Below, piece by piece: positions 19,301 to 46,299 of a DNA stretch of 64,000 bases. The notes below the pieces were generated by a model that was given only the letters and a program-made list of their open reading frames with translations, did no database searches and had not been told where the DNA came from. The position numbers and the translations under genes were made by a program. The DNA lies in the NCBI RefSeq assembly GCF_009914755.1, contig NC_060945.1; one strand, 5' to 3'. Origin of the DNA: the human T2T-CHM13v2.0 reference genome, Homo sapiens. Within the stretch, counting starts at the first letter, position 1, and each line of letters begins with the position of its first letter.

Positions 19301-19747
19301 TGTGTATTACAGCACTATTCACAATAGCAAAGACTTGAAACCAACTCAAATGCCCATCAATGATAGACTGGATAAAGAAAATGTGTCACATATACACCAT
19401 GGAATACTATGCAGCCATAAAAAAGAATGAGTTCATGTCCTTTGCAGGAACATGGATGAAGCTGGAAACCATCATTCTCAGCAAACTAACACAGGACAGA
19501 AAAACACACCACATGTTCTGACTCACAAGTGGGAGCTGAACAATGAGAACACATGGACGCAGGGAGGGGAACGTCACATACCAGGGCCTGTCGGGGCTTG
19601 GGGACTAGGGGAGGAATAGCATTAGGAGAAATACCTATTGTACATGATAGGTTGATGGGTGCAGCTAACAACCATGGCACATGTATACCTATGCAACAAA
19701 CATTCACGTTCTGCACATGTATCCCAGAAATTAAAGTATAAAAAAAA
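16370..19747 (+). mobile_element. 5'-truncated L1PA (~3.4 kb), disrupted ORF2 (RT and C-terminal domain) plus 3'UTR
   Basis: ORF-track fragments 16354-19338 are L1 ORF2 peptides ([43 protein letters not shown]) broken by stops and frameshifts; L1PA 3'UTR and A tail. Confidence 0.97.
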
Positions 19748-26469: not shown

Positions 26470-27900
26470 TAAACTGAACAAACATAAGAAACGTTCTTCA
26501 ACTAATTGAGCATCAACTAAAAATGTGTGTGATAATATGTACCCCAATCATTTGTTCAATTTCTATTAATTGAACGTTAATGAAGAAAACAAATACAAAT
26601 CCTGAGAAAAATATCTTAATGTTAAACTAACTGCAATGTGATGAAAGCATTTTATACGATAAATTATTGCTGAGACCACTGCATCAATTCACTGGACCTG
26701 TAATCATAACATATATTCAATTCCACAATTATGGAAAGTGTGTATCTGCTACTTGAAAACATTTGGTTGGAAAACATTTTATTATTTTAAATGGAAAACA
26801 ATTCAGATCCTTATTTCAAATTTTGATATCACTGAAAAGATTAGTATCGTAGGAAAAGAGATCATGTTGGAGAGTATGACTATTTTGCTTATATTCATAA
26901 TTTTAGATGTTACATCTGGAGATTTAAGAAAATATAAACGTTAATTATAGAACATCTATCACTAATTACAGGGAATATGTCTTAGAGAGCCCTGTGCATA
27001 AATGTATTAATTAGTCTCTTAAAACCCTGATTACTGCTTTCCCTTTGCAGCCTCCCATAGAGCAAAGAAATTCATTATAATGAAGAGATCTTACAAAAAT
27101 TCACATTATGCAAATTGCCTTTGGAAATACTATGAAATGTGAACCTCCCAAAAACTTTGAGAAGATATTTTATCCCATGTTATATGTAAGAAAACTGAGT
27201 TTTAGGGAGCAATTGTGTTACTAAACCAAAGTAAGAAAAGAAATAAGTAGCAAAGAAATATGCCATTGAGGACATAATCCTGGCAAATGATCATCACCTC
27301 AACTGTCCTTGAAGAGTTACCAGAATGAGATGACTGTTTCCCAGGGCAACTGAACTATTACCATATTATATCTCCTAATCTCTCTGCATCCTAGTGTGAG
27401 TAGGTTGCTATATCCCTTCAAGAACTGAAACAGACCATATTCATTATAGCATTAATCCATGAACACATTTATGAGTTCCTCTGCAATGGCTTTACTAATC
27501 TTGTTCCTCTTTTCCCTGCTTTGAGTTGCATTTTCTGTACAGATCCCAGAAATCCAGAAATACTGACTCTAACAGTAGGTAGATGCTTCAAAGCTCACTT
27601 TGAACGTGATATACTCCTTCCTAACTCTGCAATAGAATCGAGCATAATTTTTTCTTTTTGGGTCACATTATTCTTATTCATGTTGCCCTGACCCAACCTT
27701 CAATTATTTTTATTATAGAATCACTAAATTACAAAGTAGAAGTGAATAATGTGAATGAATTAATTAAGCCCAAGTTTTGAATGCACATATTTACTCAGAC
27801 TTTTCTAACTGAAGATGCAAATTCTTCAACAACTTCAGGATAGAAATGTTTACAAGACAGCCTATTCCAATTTCACACTATTCTAGCCTTTAAAAAAAGT

Positions 27901-28104
27901 TTCTTTGTTTTTTGCTTTTTTTTTTTTTTTTTTTTTTTTTGAGACAGGATCTCACTCTGTTGCCCAGGCTGGCGTGCAGTCGTGCGATCATGGCTCACTG
28001 CAACCTCAACCTCCCAAGCTCAAGTGACCCACCCACCTCAGCCTCCTGAATAGCTGGGACTACAGGTGTGCACCATCATGCCTGGCTAATCCTTGCATTT
28101 TTTT
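27901..28104 (-). mobile_element. Partial AluJ (right arm), present only in the left duplicate copy
   Basis: gagacaggatctcactctgttgcccaggctgg...gcgatcatggctcactgcaacctcaacctcc; absent at the paralogous site near 34030. Confidence 0.9.
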
Positions 28105-28249
28105 CATAAACATGATATTTTGCAGAAAAAACAATTTATCTTGTAAAATTTATTTGTCTTTAAATTCTACCCATTGAATCTTGTGGTCTTCAGTGGAAAC
28201 ACAAAGCAGAATAAACCTAATTTTCTGTCTCACACATACACACAAGAAG

Positions 28250-29330
28250 TCTTTGAAAAATGCCAAACAACTTAAACATAAAACAAGCATGAAACAGAGT
28301 ACAGAGATAAACTCATTTACAAGCAATAACGGAGAATAGAGGTGGCAACACCAACCAATGACAAAGGGTTTAGTAGGTGGTGTTAAAGAAGCTGGCTTAA
28401 TTCAGTGAAAAGGGAAACTGGAGCACCGCATATAAAGGTAGGCTCCAGCTGGACTAATGATCTGAGTGTGAAGTGTAAAACTTTAAAAATAATAAAAGAA
28501 AATGTAGCATATCTTTGACATAAAAATAAGGTAGATCTTCTCAAAAAATAACAAATCATAGATTTAAAATGTTTGTTCAATTATGCACGATATGAGCAAA
28601 AATAAATGATAGTTTTGGCGATATTTGCAATGTCTAAAAATGACAAGGAAATTTATCAAGAATATACAATGAAGTCCTACAAATCAGTAAGAAAAAGACA
28701 GAAATCTCAATGGAAAAATGGGCAAAGGATATGGAAGAGAAACCACAAAGGTTAACACATACTGGAAGAAATGAAAATGTTCAAACCCGTTAGTAATCAG
28801 AGATATGCAAATTAAAACAGCAAGATAACTTTTTACTTCTCAAAAAAACATTAAAAGGTGATATAAAACAATATTGGCACATGTTTGAGGACATATAAGC
28901 TGCAATTTGGCAGTTTGGACTGATGCAGACATCCTGGAGACTAACCTGATGGTACTTACTAAAATAAAATATAAACACATCATTTGTCTCAGCAATTTAC
29001 ATTTTGGATTGATTCTCATAGAAGCCCATGGAGGACATGTTCATTGCACCAGTGCTGTGCTGAAGAGGCTGGGTGTGATTTAAGTGTGCATCCCTGAGAT
29101 ACTGAATGGACAAAATCTTGTGTATTAACCACATGGAGTACCAACCAACAATTAGAAATGATAGTTTAAATCTACACATAATAGCATAAATGAGACTTTC
29201 AACACAAATAGCACTGAGAGAGAAAAGGTCTTCAGAGGATATAAAATAACACCATTTACATAGATTTAAAATATTTAATAAAATGACCGACTTTCTTGGG
29301 ACTTTGAAAACATGAATAAGGATGGTTGCA
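28250..29330 (+). mobile_element. Old L1M 3' fragment shared by both duplicate copies (paralogue ~34150-35150)
   Basis: gtcctacaaatcagtaagaaaaagaca...aaaatgggcaaaggatatg...tagtaatcagagatatgcaaattaaaaca. Confidence 0.65.
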
Positions 29331-30386
29331 TATGAGATAAATTGCAATATGGCTATAAATGAGAGATGAAGGTGGAAACCAAAAAGAAATAAAAGAGAAT
29401 AAATAAATTATTATGTTAGCAAAATATTAAAACACATAAAGATCCATGCGTGTTCAAACAATAACATTATATGAATAGGGGAGTATATTAATCCTCTACA
29501 TTTCAAGAAAAAAATTAGTGAAGACATCAGTTGTGCACCTGCCCTAACTAAAATTGATGTAAGGACATATATTAATTTACCTAAGATTTTGCTTGCTCAG
29601 CCTTTTGTCCTTTCCTCTTGATCCCCAAGACCTATAAAATTTGGGCACACATTCTTGGCTGACTAGCACAACCCCAGTCCACAACCCCCTTTTTTTTTTC
29701 ATTACACCCATCTTCAGATAAGAGTGGCCGCAGAACACATGTGTCCAAACAGGGCAGTCAAAAGTCTTCCAGGAAGTGTTCACCTTCCCCACAATGAAGG
29801 AAAAAAGTTTTAAAAGGCCTGATGTTCATCATTTATCCTTAGTCGTGCAGGATGTTGGTCATACACAGCAACCACTTTGAAACCATGAGTATGAAAGTCA
29901 CACAGCAGGAGTGGGGAGTGGGAAGACAAAAGGGTCCTGATGTTTTCTGACTTCCTTGAGCATTTGTAGTAGTCTTATCTGCTTGGTGCAATATTTCTTG
30001 TTTTATGTATTTTGAAAGCTATTAACATTAAATTAATAATGTTGCCTCTTAATTCCCGTGACTTAAGCCCAGGACAGCCAGTCATTTCAGGACTAGTGCA
30101 TTAACCTCGTAAGTAGATTCCTTTTCTCACTAATCTCCTTATTTTAGTCCTTTGGTCATGCATATTATAATATTTTAGTGTGATGTTTGTGTTTGTGTTT
30201 AGATATGAATGTAAATAATTAACATACAAAGAATTTAGAAAATACGTAAAACAGCCAATATTTGGATTCAACCAATAAAATATTATCTTATTTTAAGTTG
30301 CCATCACCCATCTTGTAAGGAAGCCACAAACCCTGAAACTAATGCTGATTCTGACATGAGACCAGTTTTCCTACTGAACAAGGCTT

Positions 30387-30392
30387 TTTATT
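30387..30392 (-). terminator. AATAAA polyadenylation signal of the KRTAP21-4P-like unit
   Basis: tttatt on + strand, at the position equivalent to 36217-36222 of KRTAP21-2. Confidence 0.7.
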
Positions 30393-30719
30393 AAGAAACT
30401 TCCATTTTTATTCCCTTGTAGTATGCACCAATTACGTGGCCCTCCTGTGCTTTTTCAGAAATCCACAATACAAAGACAGAGAAGATGATGTAAAAATTTA
30501 CAATGGAAAATTAATCAGAATAAAATCTTCTGTCTTCAGTGATGTGATGGAACTACTCAGTCTCCATCCACTGCAAACAGCTTCTTGTATGTTCATTCAG
30601 ATAGTTAGTGGACCATAGTTAATCTTTACTTAGATGTGAAGATAATGGGTAGGGGAGATTTCAACTGGACTTGATCTTGGAGAGGTCATCATTAAGGCAA
30701 GGATCATCTGTGGTGATGA

Positions 30720-32234
30720 TTAGCAGCAAGAGGAATAGCATCTTCTGTAGCAAAATGGTCGACAGCCCCAGCAGCCAGAGCTGTATTTACAGCCGTAGGG
30801 AGAGCCGAATCCATATCCAGAGCCATATCCACAGCCATAGCCAGAGGCAGAGCCATATCCACAGCCATAGCCACAGCCATAGCCAGAGCCAGAGCCATAT
30901 TGACAGCCGGAGCCATATCTACAGCCAGAGCCATATCCACAACCATAGCCACAGCCAGTTCCATATCCACAGCCATAGCCAGAGCCAGAGCCATATCCAC
31001 AGCCATAGCCAGAGCCAGAGCCATATCCACAACCATAGCCACAGCCAGTTCCATATCCACAGCCATAGCCAGAGCCAGAGCCATATCCACAGCCATAGCC
31101 AGAGCCAGAGCCATATCCATAACCATAGCCACAGTCAGTTCCATATCCAGAGCCGTATTGACAGCCAGAGCCATATCCACAGCCATAGCCAGAGCCAGAG
31201 CCATATCCACAACCATAGCCAGAGCCATATCCACAGCCATAGCCAGAGCCAGAGCCATATCCATAACCATAGCCGCAGCCAGTTCCATATCCAGAGCCGT
31301 ATTGACAGCCAGAGCCATATCCACAGCCAGAGCCAGAGCCATATCCATAACCATAGCCACAGCCAGAGCCATATCCACAACCATAGCCACAGCCAGTTCC
31401 ATATCCAGAGCCGTATTGACAGCCAGAGCCACATCCACAGCCAGAGCCACATCCACAGCCAGAGCCATATCCACAGCCATAGCCAGAGCCAGAGCCATAT
31501 CCACAACCATAGCCAGAGCCAGAGCCATATCCACAGCCATAGCCACAGCCAGAGACATATCCACAGCCATAGCCAGAGCCAGAGCCATATCCACAGCCAT
31601 AGCCAGAGCCAGAGCCATATCCATAACCATAGCCACAGCCAGTTCCATATCCAGAGCTGTATTGACAGCCAGAGCCATAGCCACAGCCAGAGCCATATCC
31701 ACAACCATAGCCACAGCCAGAGCCATATCCACAGCCATAGCCAGAGCCAGAGCCATATCCATAACCATAGCCATAGCCAGTTCCATATCCAGAGCTGTAT
31801 TGACAGCCAGAGCCATATCCACAGCCAGAGCCATATCCACAACCATAGCCACAGCCAGAGCCATATCCATAACCATAGCCACAGCCAGAGCCATATCCAA
31901 AGCCATAGCCAGAGCCAGAGCCATATCCACAGCCATAGCCAGATCCAGAGCCATATCCACAGCTATAGCCAGAGCCAGAGCCATATCCACAGCCACATCC
32001 ACAGCCAGAGCCATATCCATAACCATAGCCACAGCCAGAGCCATATCCACAACCATAGCCAGAGCCAGAGCCATATCCACAGCCATATCCACAGCCAGAG
32101 CCATATCCATAACCATAGCCACAGCCAGAGCCATATCCATAACCATAGCCAGAGCCATATCCACAACCATATCCAGAACCACAATCATATCCACAGACAG
32201 AACCCCAGGCAGAGCCATATCTGCATATGTCCTC
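30720..32234 (-). pseudogene. KRTAP21-4P: Start-less, repeat-expanded KRTAP21 paralogue: 504-codon open Gly/Tyr/Ser/Cys frame ending ...GCWGCRPFCYRRCYSSCC*
   Basis: Hand translation: TAA at 30722-30720, no in-frame stop until the upstream TAA at 32237-32235, no in-frame ATG; N-end CRYGSAWGSVCGYDCG aligns to KRTAP21-2 CGYGSGWSSGCGYGCG. Symbol assigned from recalled gene order, not verified. Confidence 0.8.
30810..32200. repeat. Coding-type VNTR built from 6-nt Gly-X units with higher-order blocks
   Basis: Units agagcc/atagcc/acagcc/atatcc; perfect 90-bp tandem copy 30931-31020 = 31021-31110. Confidence 0.97.
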
Positions 32235-33505
32235 TTAGATCTGCCTTTGCTGCATCCCAACGTTTTGGTATGTTATGCTTTTATTTTCGTTTGTTTCAAG
32301 ATATCTTTAGTTTTCCTTTCTTTTTATTCTTGACTCATTTGTTGTTTATGATGATGTTGTTTAGTTTTCATATATCTGCACATTTTCCAAAATTCCTTCC
32401 ATTATTGATTTGTTGATTCAAACCATTGTGGTTGGAAAAGATACTTAATATAATCACAGTCTTCCTAAATATATTAAGACCTGTTTTGAAACACATTTCA
32501 AAACAACAAAAGAAAACTTAAATATGTTAAGACTTCTTTTGAAGCATGTTTTCTGTGTTTTGAGCAGAATTGTATTCTGCTGCTGTTGGATGAAATGTCC
32601 TATATACGCCTATTAGGTCCATTTGCTCTAAAGTATAGTTCAGATCTAATGGTTACTTACCTATTTTCTATCTGAATAATCTGTTCATTGATGAAAGAAT
32701 AATAATAATAATAGTATAATAAAATACAATAATAAAATAATAGTAATATTACATTGTAAATGTCTCTTCAACTATATTAATATTTGCTTTACATTTTTAG
32801 GTGTTTGACATTGGGTACATATGTGTTTATAATTGTTATGTCTTCTTGATGAGTTAATCCATTTACCATTATATACTGACTTTCTTTTCCTTGTTTTACA
32901 GTTTTTTTTAATTCAAAGTCTAATTTATTTGATATATGTATATGGTCTTTTTTTGTTTCAATTTGCATGGAATACCTTTTTCCATCCTTGTTCTTTCAAT
33001 CTATATGTGTCCTTAAAAGCAACGTGAGTTTCTTGTAGGCAACATTTAGTTGGGTCTTTGTTTATATATATACGGATATATATATATATGAATATATATA
33101 CGAATATATATATATGAATATATATACGAATATATATACGAATATATATACGTATATATATACGTATATATACACGAATATATATACGTATATATACGAA
33201 TATATACGTATATATATACGAATATATACGAACATATATACGAACATATATACGAACATATATATGAACATATATATATGAACGTATATATGAATATATA
33301 TATATGAACGTATGTATGAATATATATATGAATGTATGTATGAATGTATATATGAATATATATATGAATGTATATATGAATATATATATGAATATATATA
33401 TGAATATATATATGAGCATTTTCTTGTTTTCTGGGTGTTTTGTAGATCTTTTCTTTCCTCCTCTCTGCTGTCTTCCATTGTAATTAGATAACGTTTTTCT
33501 ACTGA
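32230..33505 (-). mobile_element. Old L1M fragment (early ORF2 region) abutting the truncated KRTAP frame
   Basis: Minus strand encodes WDAAKADLRG near 32259-32230 and [11 protein letters not shown]...[13 protein letters not shown] (L1 endonuclease motifs) at 32958-33060. Confidence 0.85.
33062..33414. repeat. AT-rich compound microsatellite (TATATACGAA / TATATATGAA variants)
   Basis: Directly visible, embedded in the L1. Confidence 0.95.
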
Positions 33506-33509
33506 TATA

Positions 33510-36500
33510 TGCATTCCACAGTGAGTACTTCCTGGGATCCCTTCAATAACTGAAATAGATCCCACACATTATTGCAGTAATATCTTACCACTCTAATGAG
33601 CGCTTCTGCAAGGGTATTACTAATCTGTTGTCTTTCTTTCTCCTGCTTTGGAAACCATTTTCTGCATGGACTCCCAGAAATCATTTAAAACTTGATCTAA
33701 CAGTAGGTTAGCCTCAAAACTCATGTGAAACCTTACATTCTTCTTCCTAACTCTATAATAAAATTGAGTATTATTTCTTGGCATTATAGGCCATATCATT
33801 CTTATCCAGCTTGCCTACAACTAACATTCAATGATCCTTTACATATACAATCACAGAATTTCAAAGTAGAAGTGAATGATGTGGATAATTTAATTAGGTC
33901 CACGTTCAGAGTGCAGAATTACTCAGAATTTTCTAGGGGGTGGAGATACAAATTATTCAATAACTTCAGGATAGGGATGCTAACAAGACAACTTATTCCA
34001 TCTTCATACTGTGTTAGCCATTTGAAAAGTGTCTTATTTTTTTAAGTCTTCCTGTCTTTAAATTCTATCCATTGGACCTAGTTGTCTTCAGTGAAAAAAC
34101 AAACCAGAATAAACCTAATTCTGTATCACACATATACCTTCCCTGCAAAACCTTTTAAAAATGCTAAGAAATATAAACATAAATCAAGCATAGTACAAAG
34201 TCCAGAGACCAACTCTTGTATATGTGATAAAATCATAGACTAACGATGGTCACCACCAATCAGTTACAAATGGTGAGCTGTTTAGTAGGTGGTGCTGGAG
34301 AATCTAGCTTAATATAATGAAAAATGAAACTGGACCACCATATATAGAGGTGGACTCCAGGTGGATTAATGATCAAAGAGTGAAATGTAAAAATTTTCAA
34401 TTGACAGATGTAGAATATCAATGAAATAAAGATAATATGTATCATCTTTTAAATAACTAAAAAGTCAGAAATTACAGTTTGCAATGTGGTGCAATTATGC
34501 ACACTATTAACAAAAATAAACAAATGACAGTTTGTGAGATTTTTCCAGTGTCAAAAATAACAAGGGAATTTTATTAGGATTATACAATAAATGCCTACAA
34601 ATCAATAAGAAAGAGACAGACACTTCTGTTTAGAAAATGAGCAAAGGATGTGGAAGAGAAAACATTAAGGATAACACATATGGAAAGAAAATTGTTCACA
34701 CCCATTAATAATAAGAGATACATAAATTAAAACAGCAAGATGATATCTTTGTCACTGTGCAAACAAGCAACATTAGCATGTTAGAGTAAACAAATATTGT
34801 TACATATGTGAGGACAGATTTTGGGATTGACTTTCATAGAAGCCCATAAGGGTCACGTGTTCATTGCAGCAATGTTGTGCTGAAGAAGAGCTGGGTGTGA
34901 TTATGTGTGCATCACCGAGATAGCAAAAGGCAAAATCTTGTGTATTAGCCACGTGAAGTATCATATGGCAATGAGAAATAATAGTCTAAATGTACACGTA
35001 GTAGCATAAATGAATCATTCACTGCAATTGTGCTGAAAGAAAAGGGGTTTTAAAATATATATATAATAATACAATTTAAATAGGTTGAAAATATATAGTA
35101 GAATGGCCAACTTTTGGGGGATACTGACAAGATGAAAAGGGGTATTGCATATAAAATAATAAATAACAAGGTGTTTATGAATGAGAGATGAGTGTGAGAA
35201 TGGAAATAAAAGATAAATGTAAGAGAATAAATAAATTACTCTGTTAGACAAAAAAAAATAGAAAAAGGGAAAAGAGCTATGTGTGGACAAACAGTAATAT
35301 GATATAAATAGGACAGTATATTAAGCTCAAACCTCTACACTTGAAGGAAAAAAATGAGTGAAGTCATAAATTGTACCCCTTCCCAAACTCAAATTGCTGT
35401 AGGAACATATGGCCATTTACCTGAGGTTTTGCTTCCTCAGTCTTTTGTCCTTTCCTCTTGATCCCAAAGACCTACATACTTTGGGCACACATGATTGCTG
35501 ACTAGCAGAACCCCTGAACACCTTTTTGTTCTTTACACACCTTTAGCTAAGAGTGGTCACAGTACACATGTGTACAAACAAGGGCAGTCAAAATTCTTCC
35601 AGGAAGAGTGTCCCTTCCCAAATAAGAGGACAAAGTTTTAAAAGACCTGATGCTCTTCATCATTTGTCCTTACTTGTGCAGAATGTTGGTCATACACAGC
35701 AACCACTTTAAAACCATGAGTATGAAAGTCACACAGAAAGGGTGGGGAGTGGGAACATAAAAGAGCCCTGATCCTTTCTCACCATCTTGAGCACTTGTAG
35801 GAGACTTATCTGCTTAGTCTAAGATTTCTTGTTTTACATATTTCAAAAGCTATTAACATTAAATTAATATTGTTGCCTCTTAATTACCTTGACTTAAGCT
35901 CAAACAAGATAGTCATTGCTGAACTAGTGCATTAACCTCATGAGTAGATCCCCTGTCTCATTCTTGGTTCTATTCTAATTCTTTTTTCATGCATATTTTA
36001 AAATTTTGAGCTTAATATTTGTGTTCATGTTTAAATAAAAATGTAAAGAGTTAACATACAAGGAATTAAGAAATATGTAAAACACAAGTATTTGGATTCA
36101 ACCAATAAAATAACGTTGTCTTATTTAAAGTTGTGGTCACACAGCTTTTGAGGAAGCCACAAAACCTCAAATTAAGGAGACATTAAGGAGACCAGACTTC
36201 TTAGTGAGTAAGGCCTTTTATTAAGAAAATTCTATTTTTTTTCCATTTTAGTATGCTCCAATTATATAGTCCTCTTGTGTTTCAGCAAATAGTCATGGCA
36301 CAAAGATTCAGAAAAAGATGTAAGAGCTTACATTAGAAAATTACACTAGAAAATTAATCAGAATAAAATCTCCTCTCTTCAGCGATGTGATGAAACTACT
36401 CAGTCTCCATCCACTGCCAACAGCTTCTCTTATATGCATTCAGATAGTCAGGTGACCATAGTCAACCTTTACTTAGATGTGAAGATAATGGGTAGGGGAG

Positions 36501-36790
36501 ATTTCAATTGAACTTGATCTTGGAGAGGTCATTGCAAAGCCAAGGATGACCTGTAGTGATGATTAGTAGCAAGAGGAATAGCATCTTCTGTAGCAAAGTG
36601 GTCGGTAGCCACAGCAGCTAGAGCTGTATCCACAGCCATATCCACAGCCAGAGCCGTATCCACAGCCATAGCCACAGCCAGTTCCATAGCCAGAGCCATA
36701 TCTACAGCCAGAGCCGTATCCACAGCCATAGCCACAACCATATCCACAGCCGGAACTCCAGCCAGAGCCATATCCACAGCCCCCACAGCA
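33510..36790. repeat. Tandem duplication, right copy (contains most of KRTAP21-2 and its 3' flank)
   Basis: Collinear with 27385-32225. Confidence 0.9.
36217..36222 (-). terminator. AATAAA polyadenylation signal of KRTAP21-2
   Basis: About 340 nt downstream of the stop; conserved in the paralogue. Confidence 0.7.
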
Positions 36791-36814
36791 GTTTCTGTAG
36801 TAGTTGCAACACAT
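36563..36814 (-). CDS. KRTAP21-2: Keratin-associated protein 21-2 (83 aa, high Gly-Tyr/Cys)
   Basis: MCCNYYRNCCGGCGYGSGWSSG...GYRPLCYRRCYSSCY; single exon with TATA box and polyA signal. Confidence 0.95.
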   Translation of the reverse strand: MCCNYYRNCCGGCGYGSGWSSGCGYGCGYGCGYGSGCRYGSGYGTGCGYGCGYGSGCGYGCGYSSSCCGYRPLCYRRCYSSCY

Positions 36815-36892
36815 GATTTCAGGAGGTTAGATTTCAGTTGAGGTGTAGGAGGATATTTCTGAAGTGTGACTGTCCTCTACTCTTCTAAGACC

Positions 36893-36900
36893 TTTATATA
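36893..36900 (-). promoter_or_regulatory. TATA box of KRTAP21-2 (TATATAAA)
   Basis: 79-86 nt upstream of the ATG, identical spacing and context (agacctttatatac) to KRTAP21-1. Confidence 0.85.
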
Positions 36901-44096: not shown

Positions 44097-44463
44097 TAAG
44101 CACTCAGGCTATATCTCCTCCCTGAGACTTTTGTCATAACATCCTGAATAGGTGTCACTTTGCCTCCCTTTCCCCCTCCAGCTCCATTCTAGACACTCAG
44201 TGCCATTTCCAAAGCACAGTTCTGAAATACTCTGTGATTTGTGCTTGGGTATGTGAGAACCTGAGCATGTGGGATATGAGAAGCAGGTAGAGAAGACATT
44301 ATTTATGATGCAAGCATAAGAGGAAATAATTGCGTTATATCAAGGAAGTACCTAAGGTTCAGCCAACATACTGTTAGCCCAATTTTCAAGAGATTCCAAA
44401 ACACCCCAAGAAAGAGTAATTCACAAGCAAGTACACAAAGATTTTTAGGAATAAAGAACCATT

Positions 44464-44469
44464 TTTATT
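44464..44469 (-). terminator. AATAAA polyadenylation signal of KRTAP21-1
   Basis: About 280 nt downstream of the stop. Confidence 0.65.
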
Positions 44470-44750
44470 ACAAATGATTGACTTCCGCAACTGTAGATGT
44501 TATGATCATTAACACAGTCATAACAGAGAATCAGAGATTAAGGGAGCAAAAGATAACATTTGGAAAACAGTCAGATGACACCATGGATCCTATGGCCATG
44601 ATTTCATTCAAAGAAATGTGAGGCTAGAGGTCGAAGATTCTGTCAAGCATGTAATTCTTGGATATAGAAATCTTGGAGTACGAATCCTTGAATCAGCATT
44701 ATCTTCAGACGTGTCATTTTAGAAGCAAATGGTCCTCCGACAGTGATGTT

Positions 44751-44990
44751 TTAGCAGGAAGAATAGCATCTTCTAAAGCAAAATGGCCGGTAGCCACAGT
44801 AGCCAGAGCCAGAGCCATATCCACAGCCATAGCCAGTTCCATAACCACAGCCATAATGGGAGCCAAACCCACAGCCATACCCACAGCCATAGCCAGTTCC
44901 ATAGCCACAGCCACAGCCAGAGCCAGAGCCATAGCCACAGCCACAGCCGGAGCCATAGCCACAGGAGTTGCCGTAGTAGTTGCAACACAT
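44751..44990 (-). CDS. KRTAP21-1: Keratin-associated protein 21-1 (79 aa, high Gly-Tyr/Cys)
   Basis: MCCNYYGNSCGYGSGCGCGYG...GYRPFCFRRCYSSC; TATA box and polyA signal present. Confidence 0.95.
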   Translation of the reverse strand: MCCNYYGNSCGYGSGCGCGYGSGSGCGCGYGTGYGCGYGCGFGSHYGCGYGTGYGCGYGSGSGYCGYRPFCFRRCYSSC

Positions 44991-45068
44991 GTTGTCAAGA
45001 GGAGAGAATTGAGATGGGTTTCAAGAAGATGCTTCTGAGGTGTGGATGTCTTCTACTTCCCTGAGACC

Positions 45069-45076
45069 TTTATATA
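45069..45076 (-). promoter_or_regulatory. TATA box of KRTAP21-1 (TATATAAA)
   Basis: 79-86 nt upstream of the ATG. Confidence 0.85.
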
Positions 45077-46299
45077 CTGTCAGTAATTGCCAAAGCATAT
45101 CACTCATTCCCTGACTTAGGCAACAAATATTTAATCAATTATTATGTGCCAGTCACTGTTGACCATCAATAATATTTTGCTTAAAATGAGCCAATTATTT
45201 TGGAGACTCTAGTTTCATTTCAGGAACATCATTTTAATCTGCTCTGCCAAAGAACTGCCTCAATGAAATCATGTGCCCAAATATAAAGCTGATACTAATT
45301 TTCAAAATCTCCTATCAGTAAATTTATATCTTACATAACAAGTTTTGGGAGGATAATAACAAAATTTTATCCTTTTTTTCCTCTCTTTTTTCCTAAAATG
45401 TCTACCTCTACCCATAGGGAAGGAGACACTCCTATCTCCTTTCCTGAGTCATTACAACTTCTTGCCAGACTTCTTTCTCCAACTCACTCTGCACTTCCAC
45501 ACCTACCCCTTGTCCAACCTCCCTCAAATCCCAAGAAACATATTCACATCTGATCATTCAAAGCCAGAATGTATGCTATCTGCAAGTGCTTCCTACATTT
45601 TCCTTCCATCCACCAGGCAAACCAAGACCCTGGGGAGGCAGAGAAGCCCTCCTTTTGTCTCCCATTTCTTCAGCTATATAAGTAATTGTCATTGAGGAGC
45701 CTTTTTAAAACTAAACAGCTTCATTTGGATAAGGAAGTAAAAAAATTCATTCGACCAGAAACTCAGTTCTTTCCTCCAATACAGATTTCATCAAAGTTTT
45801 GCATGATGAAATACAGATACATTCCTAGAATTTAATAAACCATTTTTCTTCTCCTTTCACTACTATTCCTTGGACATTTACTTCAGAAGCTAAAGGATAG
45901 TGGACAATTTTAGGTTACTGACAGCAAAAGCCCACCATTAACAACTAACCCTTCTATGATATAAAGTAGCACAAAAATAAATTTTGTCCCGTTTCCATAC
46001 ACGCATTTCACACTACTCATTCAAAATTCTCAATTACCCACTTATTACAAGTTCTCAATCTTCTACAAAAATATTCATCGTGATTTTGAAATCCGAGGTG
46101 CCCTCCTTCTTCCCAACAATCCTCTCTATCACACTTACCTTTTCAAGATACAAAAGAGGAAAATTAGTATCATTTTTTCTGCCATTAGTATTTTTCTCAT
46201 CACCCTCAATTATCAACCAAAAAAACCTTCTGTTTATACATCAAAAGTCAGATCTGGAATCACTTTCTACAGGATGCCTTTCCTCATTGCTACTGTGGA

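What the first reader, a model, noticed from the sequence alone, without database searches (positions are those of the whole stretch)
30720..32234. Hidden 504-codon giant keratin-associated-protein frame with no start codon, absent from the ORF track
Seen: the third minus-strand frame is open from 32234 to the TAA at 30722-30720. It reads (EDI)CRYGSAWGSVCGYDCGSGYGCGYG...[GYGSGSGYGC / CQYGSGYGTG repeats]...GFGSPYGCKYSSGCWGCRPFCYRRCYSSCC*. That is the KAP21 family C-terminus, and it is followed by a conserved 3'UTR and AATAAA. The frame is about six times longer than neighbouring KAP21-1 and KAP21-2 (79 and 83 aa). Only the first ~12 codons (MCCNYYRNCCGG in KRTAP21-2) and the promoter are missing. 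An in-frame ATA at 32228-32226 (context GAC-ATA-TGC) is one substitution from ATG and would give a 502-aa MCRYG... protein. Inference: this is either a decapitated gene for an unusually long Gly-loop-type hair matrix protein that may be intact in other lineages or haplotypes, or a pseudogene whose repeat kept expanding.
Basis: partly seen in the sequence, partly recalled or inferred. Interest (0 to 1): 0.82.

Follow-up and report, generated by a model that had tools for sequence, protein, structure and literature searches.

The report
Headless KRTAP21-4P pseudogene with expanded repeat
This is the already annotated human hair-matrix pseudogene KRTAP21-4P, which lost its promoter and start codon at a junction with an old LINE-1 fragment and whose glycine-tyrosine repeat has grown into a 1.4-kb minisatellite that stays stop-free for mechanical reasons.

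Summary
The minus-strand frame 32234..30720 is open for 504 codons, has no Met and ends in a KAP21-type C-terminus. A 3'UTR with AATAAA shared with KRTAP21-2 follows.

The length of the frame carries little weight. Across the 1,447-bp array, 4 of 6 frames have no stop, and three other frames give ORFs of 581, 518 and 477 aa.

The locus is a non-processed duplicate of the KRTAP21-2 body plus 3.4 kb of 3' flank, at 65-89% identity. Homology to KRTAP21-2 begins at its codon 13. Directly upstream lies a LINE-1 ORF2 endonuclease fragment. The "near-ATG" ATA sits in the 5-base L1/KAP junction and is not a decayed start codon. The window holds no orphan TATA box or head.

The core is a Gly-X hexamer array with 30/60-bp units and 38-86-aa blocks. 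Its internal copies are 96-98% alike, so it is much younger than the gene duplication. The unique ends give dN/dS of about 0.8.

RefSeq already annotates this span as KRTAP21-4P. Verdict: an ordinary decapitated pseudogene carrying a coding-derived minisatellite. Transcripts, alleles and orthologues could not be examined.

The parts
30720..32234 (-). Stop-free KAP21-type frame of 504 codons plus TAA. It has no ATG, GTG or TTG. This is the annotated pseudogene KRTAP21-4P.
   Evidence: hub gene table (KRTAP21-4P 30721..32238).
30775..32221 (-). Coding-derived minisatellite. It is a GGN-TNT hexamer (Gly-X) array with 30- and 60-bp units (decapeptide GYGCGYGSGS) and higher-order blocks of 38-86 aa, each starting with CQY.
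   Evidence: TRF period 30 (46.4 copies, 81% matches) and period 60 (24.2 copies, score 1513). Gly occupies 94.3% of one dipeptide phase and 0% of the other, and block lengths are given. Internal copies of 125-227 bp are 95.7-97.6% identical.
32178..32225 (-). Unique N-proximal remnant CRYGSAWGSVCGYDCG, homologous to KRTAP21-2 codons 13-28. Four Gly positions are replaced (R, A, V, D).
32226..32230 (-). Junction between the LINE-1 fragment and the KAP body. It contains the in-frame ATA (32228-32226).
   Evidence: L1 copies from other chromosomes stay alignable up to AAGAGG(A) and then diverge. KRTAP21-2 homology starts at TGCAGATATGG.
32231..32941 (-). Degenerate LINE-1 ORF2 endonuclease-region fragment in the same orientation as the pseudogene. 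It is cut off at about ORF2 residue 290-295. It may extend upstream to about 33060 (by eye only).
   Evidence: Colinear phmmer matches to solved L1 ORF2p chains: residues 76-119 (E 2e-7), 167-199 (E 4e-4) and 273-287 (E 0.15-0.8). Thirty-nine dispersed copies on other chromosomes at 74-79% identity.
30738..30908 (-). C-terminal KAP domain, ending ...GCWGCRPFCYRRCYSSCC.
   Evidence: Pfam PF11759 KRTAP, residues 443-499, E 3.4e-10. Aligned to KRTAP21-2 and KRTAP21-1.
30340..30719 (-). 3'UTR-like stretch shared with KRTAP21-2, with a conserved AATAAA at 30392-30387.
   Evidence: 89% mean column identity. (87-89% in the first 200 bp).
27412..30960 (-). Duplicated block shared with KRTAP21-2 and its 3' flank (33537-36793). 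This shows a DNA-level (non-processed) duplicate. A roughly 200-bp interspersed-repeat insertion at 27915-28114 is specific to this copy.
33060..33420 (.). AT-rich simple repeat between the LINE-1 fragment and the end of the KRTAP21-2 flank.
   Evidence: Self and inverted self matches; repeat translations.

Best explanation
The interval is KRTAP21-4P, a dead, non-processed paralogue of KRTAP21-2.

Shown:
- It shares the gene body from codon 13 onward, the 3'UTR and about 3.4 kb of 3' flank with KRTAP21-2.
- It has no promoter, no 5'UTR and no first 12 codons.
- At that point it abuts an internally truncated LINE-1 ORF2 fragment.

Inferred: a non-homologous deletion or rearrangement, with one break inside an upstream L1 and the other in codon 12-13, removed the head. 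Alternatively, the copy was made headless.

Shown: the Gly-X core is now a 1.45-kb tandem array whose length changes are all multiples of 6 nt and whose blocks are 96-98% alike.

Inferred: replication slippage and unequal exchange between GGN-TNT hexamers, 30-bp units and 114-258-bp blocks amplified the core long after the gene duplication. Such events keep every frame in register, and the hexamer has no stop in 5 of 6 frames. The KAP frame therefore stays open without selection. No protein is expected, because there is no start codon and no promoter.
For: - Homology to KRTAP21-2 runs over 27412-30960 against 33537-36793, at 65-89% identity per 100-bp window. The 3'UTR is 89% identical.
- Nothing upstream of 32235 matches the promoter or head of KRTAP21-2 or KRTAP21-1.
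- The exact head motif occurs 2 times in the window (7 matches at up to 3 mismatches, none at this locus).
- The exact TATA motif occurs 2 times (4 matches at up to 2 mismatches, none at this locus).
- In the whole assembly the promoter-plus-head query finds 5 places: KRTAP21-2, KRTAP21-1 and three on chr13.
- The upstream DNA is LINE-1 ORF2, with 39 dispersed copies that diverge from the locus at 32230.
- 4 of 6 frames are stop-free over the array, and other frames give ORFs of 581, 518 and 477 aa.
- The Gly phase is unbroken: 94.3% against 0%.
- Internal copies are 95.7-97.6% identical.
- The unique ends give dN/dS 0.78 (Nd 12, Sd 4). Their pN of 0.127 is about the 3'UTR divergence of 0.11.
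- The 16-codon N-proximal remnant has 4 Gly positions replaced that are Gly in KRTAP21-2, and two of them also in KRTAP21-1 and a chr13 copy.
- Calibrated on the 5 stops of the Trp-rich frame, with transitions weighted 4:1, the KAP frame is expected to hold 1.0 stop, so P(0) = 0.37.
- The hub table annotates the span as a pseudogene. Human KAP21 is counted as 2+1 pseudogene in PMC3269608 (table passage).
Against: - There is no stop, no frameshift and not even a 3-nt phase slip in 1.45 kb.
- Without a transition bias, the same calibration expects 3.5 stops, so P(0) = 0.03.
- The proximal 3'UTR (87-89%) and the AATAAA are better kept than much of the distal flank (65-80%), though two distal windows also reach 84-89%.
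- dN/dS rests on only 16 changes and mixes both lineages.
- The hub table lists RefSeq 'enhancer' features over both array edges.
- I saw no expression data, no second haplotype and no orthologue. Absence of transcription and the age of the truncation are therefore inferred, not shown.
- How the head was lost is unresolved.
Confidence: 0.9

Rival explanations
1. A functional giant Gly-Tyr hair matrix protein. The frame would be transcribed from an unrecognised promoter in or beyond the L1 fragment and translated from a non-AUG codon, or from an allele in which ATA is ATG.
For: The frame is open for 504 codons. It has a family-typical C-terminus and a conserved 3'UTR and AATAAA. P(0 stops) is 0.03 if no transition bias is assumed.
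Against: - The frame has no Met and no TATA or head in the window.
- The upstream DNA is the interior of an L1 ORF2, which carries no known sense promoter (the promoter statement is general knowledge).
- The ATA is junction sequence.
- 4 of 6 frames are equally open, and dN/dS is 0.78.
- No KAP21 relative of 147 aa or more is known apart from a fused misprediction.
- The unique peptide occurs in 0 papers' main text.
Confidence: 0.03
2. The array has been co-opted as a regulatory element: a length-variable enhancer or chromatin element in the KRTAP cluster rather than a coding sequence.
For: The hub table lists RefSeq enhancer features at 30662-31162 and 31805-32347. One study lists a differentially methylated region labelled 'promoter KRTAP21-4P' in breast tissue (PMC8830042, table passage).
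Against: Nothing in the sequence was tested for this. The features are of unknown assay origin to me. The structure of the array is fully explained by slippage of a coding repeat.
Confidence: 0.05
3. The great length is an assembly artefact, meaning a mis-assembled tandem repeat.
For: Tandem arrays are error-prone in assemblies. Only one assembly was seen.
Against: The array has an aperiodic higher-order structure with distinct blocks of 46, 82, 38, 48 and 86 aa and unique variants (V, D, A, F, R) that anchor it. RefSeq places a pseudogene of the same span on it (hub table).
Confidence: 0.02

Closest known systems
KRTAP21-2 (window 36563-36814, minus), the sister paralogue
   Same: Same Gly-X core, the same C[RQ]YGSGYGTG internal motif and the same ...CYRRCYSSC tail. 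The 3'UTR is 89% identical with a shared AATAAA, and 3.4 kb of 3' flank is shared.
   Different: KRTAP21-2 has a TATA box, a 5'UTR, an ATG and the MCCNYYRNCCGG head, and is 83 aa. The pseudogene lacks all four and its core is about six times longer.
Size-polymorphic repeat cores of functional KAP genes (reported for KAP4 and others; cited in PMC4180150, passages)
   Same: Length change by gain and loss of in-frame peptide repeats within a single-exon KAP gene. The chr13 KRTAP21-1-like copies of 109 and 137 aa show the same tendency within KAP21.
   Different: Here the expansion is far larger (about 46 units of 30 bp) and sits in a copy without a start codon or promoter.
Minisatellites (VNTRs) derived from coding repeats
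   Same: Head-to-tail 30/60-bp units, higher-order blocks and internal copies much younger than the flanks.
   Different: Length variation between individuals, the defining property of a VNTR, could not be examined here.

Membership tests
KAP21 subfamily of high glycine-tyrosine keratin-associated proteins (as a gene relic) | Match to Pfam KRTAP (PF11759) above the gathering score | tested here: met
   40.7 bits against 21.1, residues 443-499. KRTAP21-2 and KRTAP21-1 match the same model.
KAP21 subfamily of high glycine-tyrosine keratin-associated proteins (as a gene relic) | High Gly+Tyr content (35-60 mol% per PMC3269608, table footnote) | tested here: met
   Gly 44.2% plus Tyr 20.6% gives 64.8%, above the upper bound because the core is amplified. 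Cys is 13.3% and Ser 14.9%, against KRTAP21 means of 17.9% and 11.5% in PMC4180150 Table 3.
KAP21 subfamily of high glycine-tyrosine keratin-associated proteins (as a gene relic) | C-terminal ...RP[FL]C[YF]RRCYSSC motif | tested here: met
KAP21 subfamily of high glycine-tyrosine keratin-associated proteins (as a functional gene) | ATG and MCCNYY head | tested here: not met
   No Met in the frame. Homology starts at codon 13. There is no head motif at the locus.
KAP21 subfamily of high glycine-tyrosine keratin-associated proteins (as a functional gene) | TATA-box promoter about 85 bp upstream of the ATG, as in KRTAP21-1 and KRTAP21-2 | tested here: not met
   Exact TATATAAAGGTCT occurs only at 36888-36900 and 45064-45076. 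Upstream DNA is LINE-1.
KAP21 subfamily of high glycine-tyrosine keratin-associated proteins (as a functional gene) | Expression in the hair follicle | not testable with these tools
   No expression data are on hand. 'KRTAP21-4P' occurs in 2 papers, neither on hair.
Non-processed (duplicated) pseudogene | Homology to the parent extends beyond the transcript into flanking DNA | tested here: met
   The block 27412-30960 matches 33537-36793, about 3 kb past the poly(A) signal.
Minisatellite / VNTR | Tandem head-to-tail units of 10-100 bp | tested here: met
   Periods 30 and 60, with 46.4 and 24.2 copies.
Minisatellite / VNTR | Copy number varies between individuals | not testable with these tools
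   Only one human assembly is held.

The most novel reading that the evidence does not exclude
The array is a young, still-growing hominoid minisatellite whose length differs between people. In some primate lineage, or in a rare human haplotype lacking the L1-junction break, the same locus keeps its TATA box and ATG and makes a several-hundred-residue Gly-Tyr-Cys matrix protein. That would be far longer than any described high-glycine-tyrosine KAP.
Probability: 0.04. Interest if true: 0.6.

Novelty: already known. Interest (0 to 1): 0.18.

Why it matters
As it stands the finding matters little. It is an annotated pseudogene, and its long open frame is a textbook case of a repeat that cannot acquire stops easily.

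It has two modest uses.
- It is a clear warning that ORF length is no evidence of coding in Gly-X hexamer arrays, since four frames are open at once.
- It records how the gene died, at an L1 ORF2 / codon-13 junction, and shows that the core went on expanding about six-fold. I did not find this in print in four searches; Rogers et al. 2002 was not readable.

If the array is length-polymorphic, it could serve as a marker in the 21q22.1 KRTAP cluster.

Tried and rejected
- Codon-position test on nine pairs of near-identical array blocks. Of 57 differences, 6, 32 and 19 fell at codon positions 1, 2 and 3, and 42 were non-synonymous against 15 synonymous. I rejected it as uninformative: most differences are the patterned Tyr/Cys/Ser and GGC/GGT/GGA alternation of the repeat, not new mutations, and the pairs overlap.
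- Pfam on four short L1-like translations gave no meaningful match. I replaced it with searches of solved structures.
- Model in which the KAP block was inserted into an L1. The L1 remainder should then lie below 27412. I saw no L1-like frames there by eye, and 26800-27424 is single-copy in the assembly. Not supported.
- Model of a tandem duplication that carried the L1 5' part along. There is no second copy of 32238-33536 below 27412. Not supported.
- Search for long intact relatives. None turned up among proteins of 277-882 aa with the C-terminal 65 residues (395 candidates). Among proteins of 147-2000 aa queried with KRTAP21-2, there were 2 hits from 2,409 candidates. One is a dog-family prediction that fuses two units of about 80 aa, and the other is an unrelated metagenome protein. 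The shorter search returned 3 hits from 778 candidates and did not return human KRTAP21-2 itself, so sensitivity is low.
- Whole-assembly search with the C-terminal 53 residues found only the locus itself (11 candidates). This says nothing either way.
- The sigma-70 promoter and terminator scan is a bacterial consensus and does not apply to a human locus. I disregarded it.
- Rogers et al. 2002 (J Biol Chem), the original description of the 21q22.1 domain, is not held.
- I did not open the supplements of PMC4180150, which may list the primate pseudogenes.

Full report
**1. The observation**

The minus strand of window 30720-32234 reads without a stop for 504 codons and ends at TAA 30722-30720. 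The frame has no Met. It has no ATG, GTG or TTG start, so a start-dependent ORF list omits it. The composition is Gly 44.2%, Tyr 20.6%, Ser 14.9% and Cys 13.3%. Residues 443-499 match Pfam KRTAP (PF11759) at E 3.4e-10, 40.7 bits against a cut-off of 21.1. KRTAP21-2 and KRTAP21-1 from the same window match the same model.

**2. Whether the open frame is more than chance**

It is not. Across the array 30775-32221 (1,447 bp), 4 of 6 frames have no stop, one has 5 and one has 52. With ATG, GTG or TTG as starts, three other frames give ORFs of 581, 518 and 477 aa. Two of these frames also contain ATG codons near their 5' ends.

The reason is structural. The array is built of GGN-TNT hexamers. Gly fills 94.3% of one dipeptide phase and 0% of the other over 454 residues. 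The units are GY 90, GS 60, GC 55, GT 7 and GF 1. Every length change has thus been a multiple of 6 nt, not merely of 3. Slippage in register with the hexamer produces exactly that, whereas selection for a reading frame does not require it.

I calibrated the expected number of stops on the 5 stops of the Trp-rich frame.
- With transitions weighted 4:1, the KAP frame should hold 1.0 stop, so P(0) = 0.37.
- With no bias it should hold 3.5, so P(0) = 0.03.

The stops near 32185, 31962 and 31134 that I traced by eye in the sequence arise from G-to-A transitions. This favours the biased model. I did not run a script on this point.

**3. What the locus is**

Self-comparison of the window shows that 27412-30960 is homologous to 33537-36793. 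That second interval is the KRTAP21-2 coding body from just after its start, its 3'UTR and about 3 kb of 3' flank. Identity per 100-column window is 65-89%. The 3'UTR alone is 89% identical, and a TTAATAAAA signal is conserved in both copies at 30392-30387. Homology reaching far past the transcript makes this a DNA-level duplicate, not a retrocopy. One repeat insertion of about 200 bp (27915-28114) is specific to this copy.

**4. The missing head**

At the 5' end, CRYGSAWGSVCGYDCG aligns to KRTAP21-2 residues 13-28, CGYGSGWSSGCGYGCG. Upstream of this point nothing resembles the 5'UTR, the TATA box or the MCCNYY head of KRTAP21-2 or KRTAP21-1.

- The exact head motif occurs twice in the window, at the two intact genes. 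There are 7 matches at up to 3 mismatches against 2.4 expected by chance, and none is at this locus.
- The exact TATA motif also occurs twice, with 4 matches at up to 2 mismatches.
- In the whole assembly the promoter-plus-head query finds 5 places: KRTAP21-2, KRTAP21-1 and three on chr13.

The upstream DNA is a LINE-1 fragment in the same orientation.
- Three colinear translated pieces match solved L1 ORF2p chains. They cover residues 76-119 (E 2e-7; 9 hits, 7 named LINE-1 ORF2 or endonuclease, 2 named LR1 and LTX), residues 167-199 (E 4e-4; the same 9 chains) and residues 273-287 (E 0.15-0.8; 5 hits, 4 named LINE-1 ORF2 protein).
- The last 190 bases before the frame have 39 dispersed matches on other chromosomes at 74-79% identity, out of 57 matches in all. 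The remaining 18 are 1 self match and 17 matches inside the array. The tool scored 40 of 995 candidates.
- Four of these copies, aligned to the locus, stay alignable up to AAGAGG(A) at 32231-32230 and then continue as L1, while the locus continues as KAP repeat.

The junction is therefore at 32226-32230. The ATA codon belongs to the junction, not to a decayed start codon.

An L1 cut off inside ORF2, with no 3' end and no poly(A), cannot be a simple insertion. The junction must come from a non-homologous break.

I tested two specific models and neither holds.
- The block was not inserted into an L1. The sequence below the block is single-copy and has no L1 frames.
- The L1 5' part was not duplicated along with the block.

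Two possibilities remain: a later deletion running from inside an upstream L1 to codon 12-13, or a copy that was headless from the start. I cannot separate them.

**5. The array**

Tandem Repeats Finder gives periods 30 (46.4 copies, 81% matches) and 60 (24.2 copies, score 1513), besides 12, 18, 42 and 90. Six CQY markers cut the protein into blocks of 46, 82, 38, 48 and 86 aa between a 143-aa head part and a 62-aa tail. Each block starts with a CQY[GS]SG motif, followed by YGTG or YGTD in five of the six, related to the CRYGSGYGTG of KRTAP21-2.

Ungapped internal copies of 125-227 bp are 95.7-97.6% identical. The two paralogues' flanks are only 65-89% identical. I infer that the amplification is much younger than the gene duplication, or that the array is continuously homogenised.

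**6. Constraint**

Nei-Gojobori counts on the two unique ends against KRTAP21-2 are as follows.
- N-proximal 16 codons: Sd 3, Nd 5.
- C-terminal 24 codons: Sd 1, Nd 7.
- Together: dN/dS 0.78, with pN 0.127. This is close to the 3'UTR divergence of 0.11.

Four Gly positions of the N-proximal remnant are replaced by R, A, V and D. The numbers are small and mix both lineages. They fit relaxed constraint but do not prove it. A codon-position test inside the array was uninformative.

**7. Relatives elsewhere**

- The protein database holds mammalian KAP21 predictions: a capuchin protein of 133 aa, a fox protein of 117 aa and an African wild dog protein of 236 aa. Their KAP21 units are about 80 aa. 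The 236-aa entry is two units fused by unrelated sequence.
- No relative of 277-882 aa was found with the C-terminal 65 residues.
- No intact relative of 147 aa or more was found with KRTAP21-2.
- Sensitivity is low, because human KRTAP21-2 itself was not returned. This is only weak evidence against a long intact form.

**8. What is in print**

- 'KRTAP21-4P' occurs in 2 papers of the library. One lists a differentially methylated region near it in breast tissue (PMC8830042, table passage). I did not open the other, a case report.
- PMC3269608 (table passage) counts human KAP21 as 2 genes plus 1 pseudogene.
- PMC4180150 (passages and Tables 1 and 3) counts gorilla KRTAP21 as 4 with 1 pseudogene, orangutan as 3 with 0 and gibbon as 3 with 0. 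It places all high-glycine-tyrosine KAPs in one cluster.
- PMC2528016 (passages) does not mention KAP21 by name.
- Searches for KRTAP21 with 'tandem repeat' (8 papers, none on this array by title or abstract), with 'VNTR' (1 unrelated paper) and for KAP21 with pseudogene found no description of the expansion or of the L1 junction.
- The unique C-terminal peptide occurs in 0 main texts. Supplements were not searched.
- The original description (Rogers et al. 2002) is not held.

**9. Verdict**

This is an ordinary, already annotated, decapitated KAP21 pseudogene whose coding repeat has become a minisatellite. The open frame is a by-product. What stays open is whether the array varies between people, when the head was lost, and whether any lineage keeps an intact long form. 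None of these can be examined with one human assembly and no mammalian genomes.

Noticed in passing
Outside the window: L006 (G000:C13:62967700-62969400), L007 (C13:63053600-63055300), L008 (C13:45679400-45681100); wider context in L011-L013: Chromosome 13 of this assembly carries three copies of a 1.3-kb piece of the KRTAP21-1 locus (window 44442-45726). BLAST identity is about 92% overall and 96-97% in the 300 bp on either side of the ORF. The copies sit inside segmental duplicates that are 96-97.6% alike over at least 9.5 kb. Two copies keep the TATA box, the ATG and complete ORFs of 137 and 109 aa, with longer Gly-Tyr cores than KRTAP21-1 (79 aa). Their first 42 and last 66 coding bases are identical to KRTAP21-1. 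The third copy has lost the A of the ATG. Published surveys place all high-glycine-tyrosine KAPs in the chr21 cluster (PMC4180150, passage). I could not see how these copies are annotated..
   Followed up: partly
L011 3152-3597 and 6336-6695; window 19312-19747: In each chr13 copy, two same-orientation copies of a repeat of about 400 bp bracket the KRTAP21-1 piece. The same repeat is present once in the window, at 83% identity. The layout looks like a pair of long terminal repeats, which is a guess from the layout only and was not tested.
   Followed up: no
window 30704-32217, minus strand, frame +1 relative to the KAP frame: An ATG at 32217-32215, with G at -3 and G at +4, opens an Ala/Met/Val/Asp/Leu-rich ORF of roughly 500 codons through the whole array. 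The plus strand holds a His/Ser-rich frame of 587 codons containing ATG codons. Both are by-products of the repeat. The same two alternative frames are open in the chr13 copies.
   Followed up: partly
window 36406 versus 36230-36240: The RefSeq KRTAP21-2 transcript in the hub table ends at 36406. The AATAAA conserved between KRTAP21-2 and KRTAP21-4P lies about 170 bp further downstream (alignment columns 346-351). The annotated 3' end may be short, or a different signal may be used.
   Followed up: no
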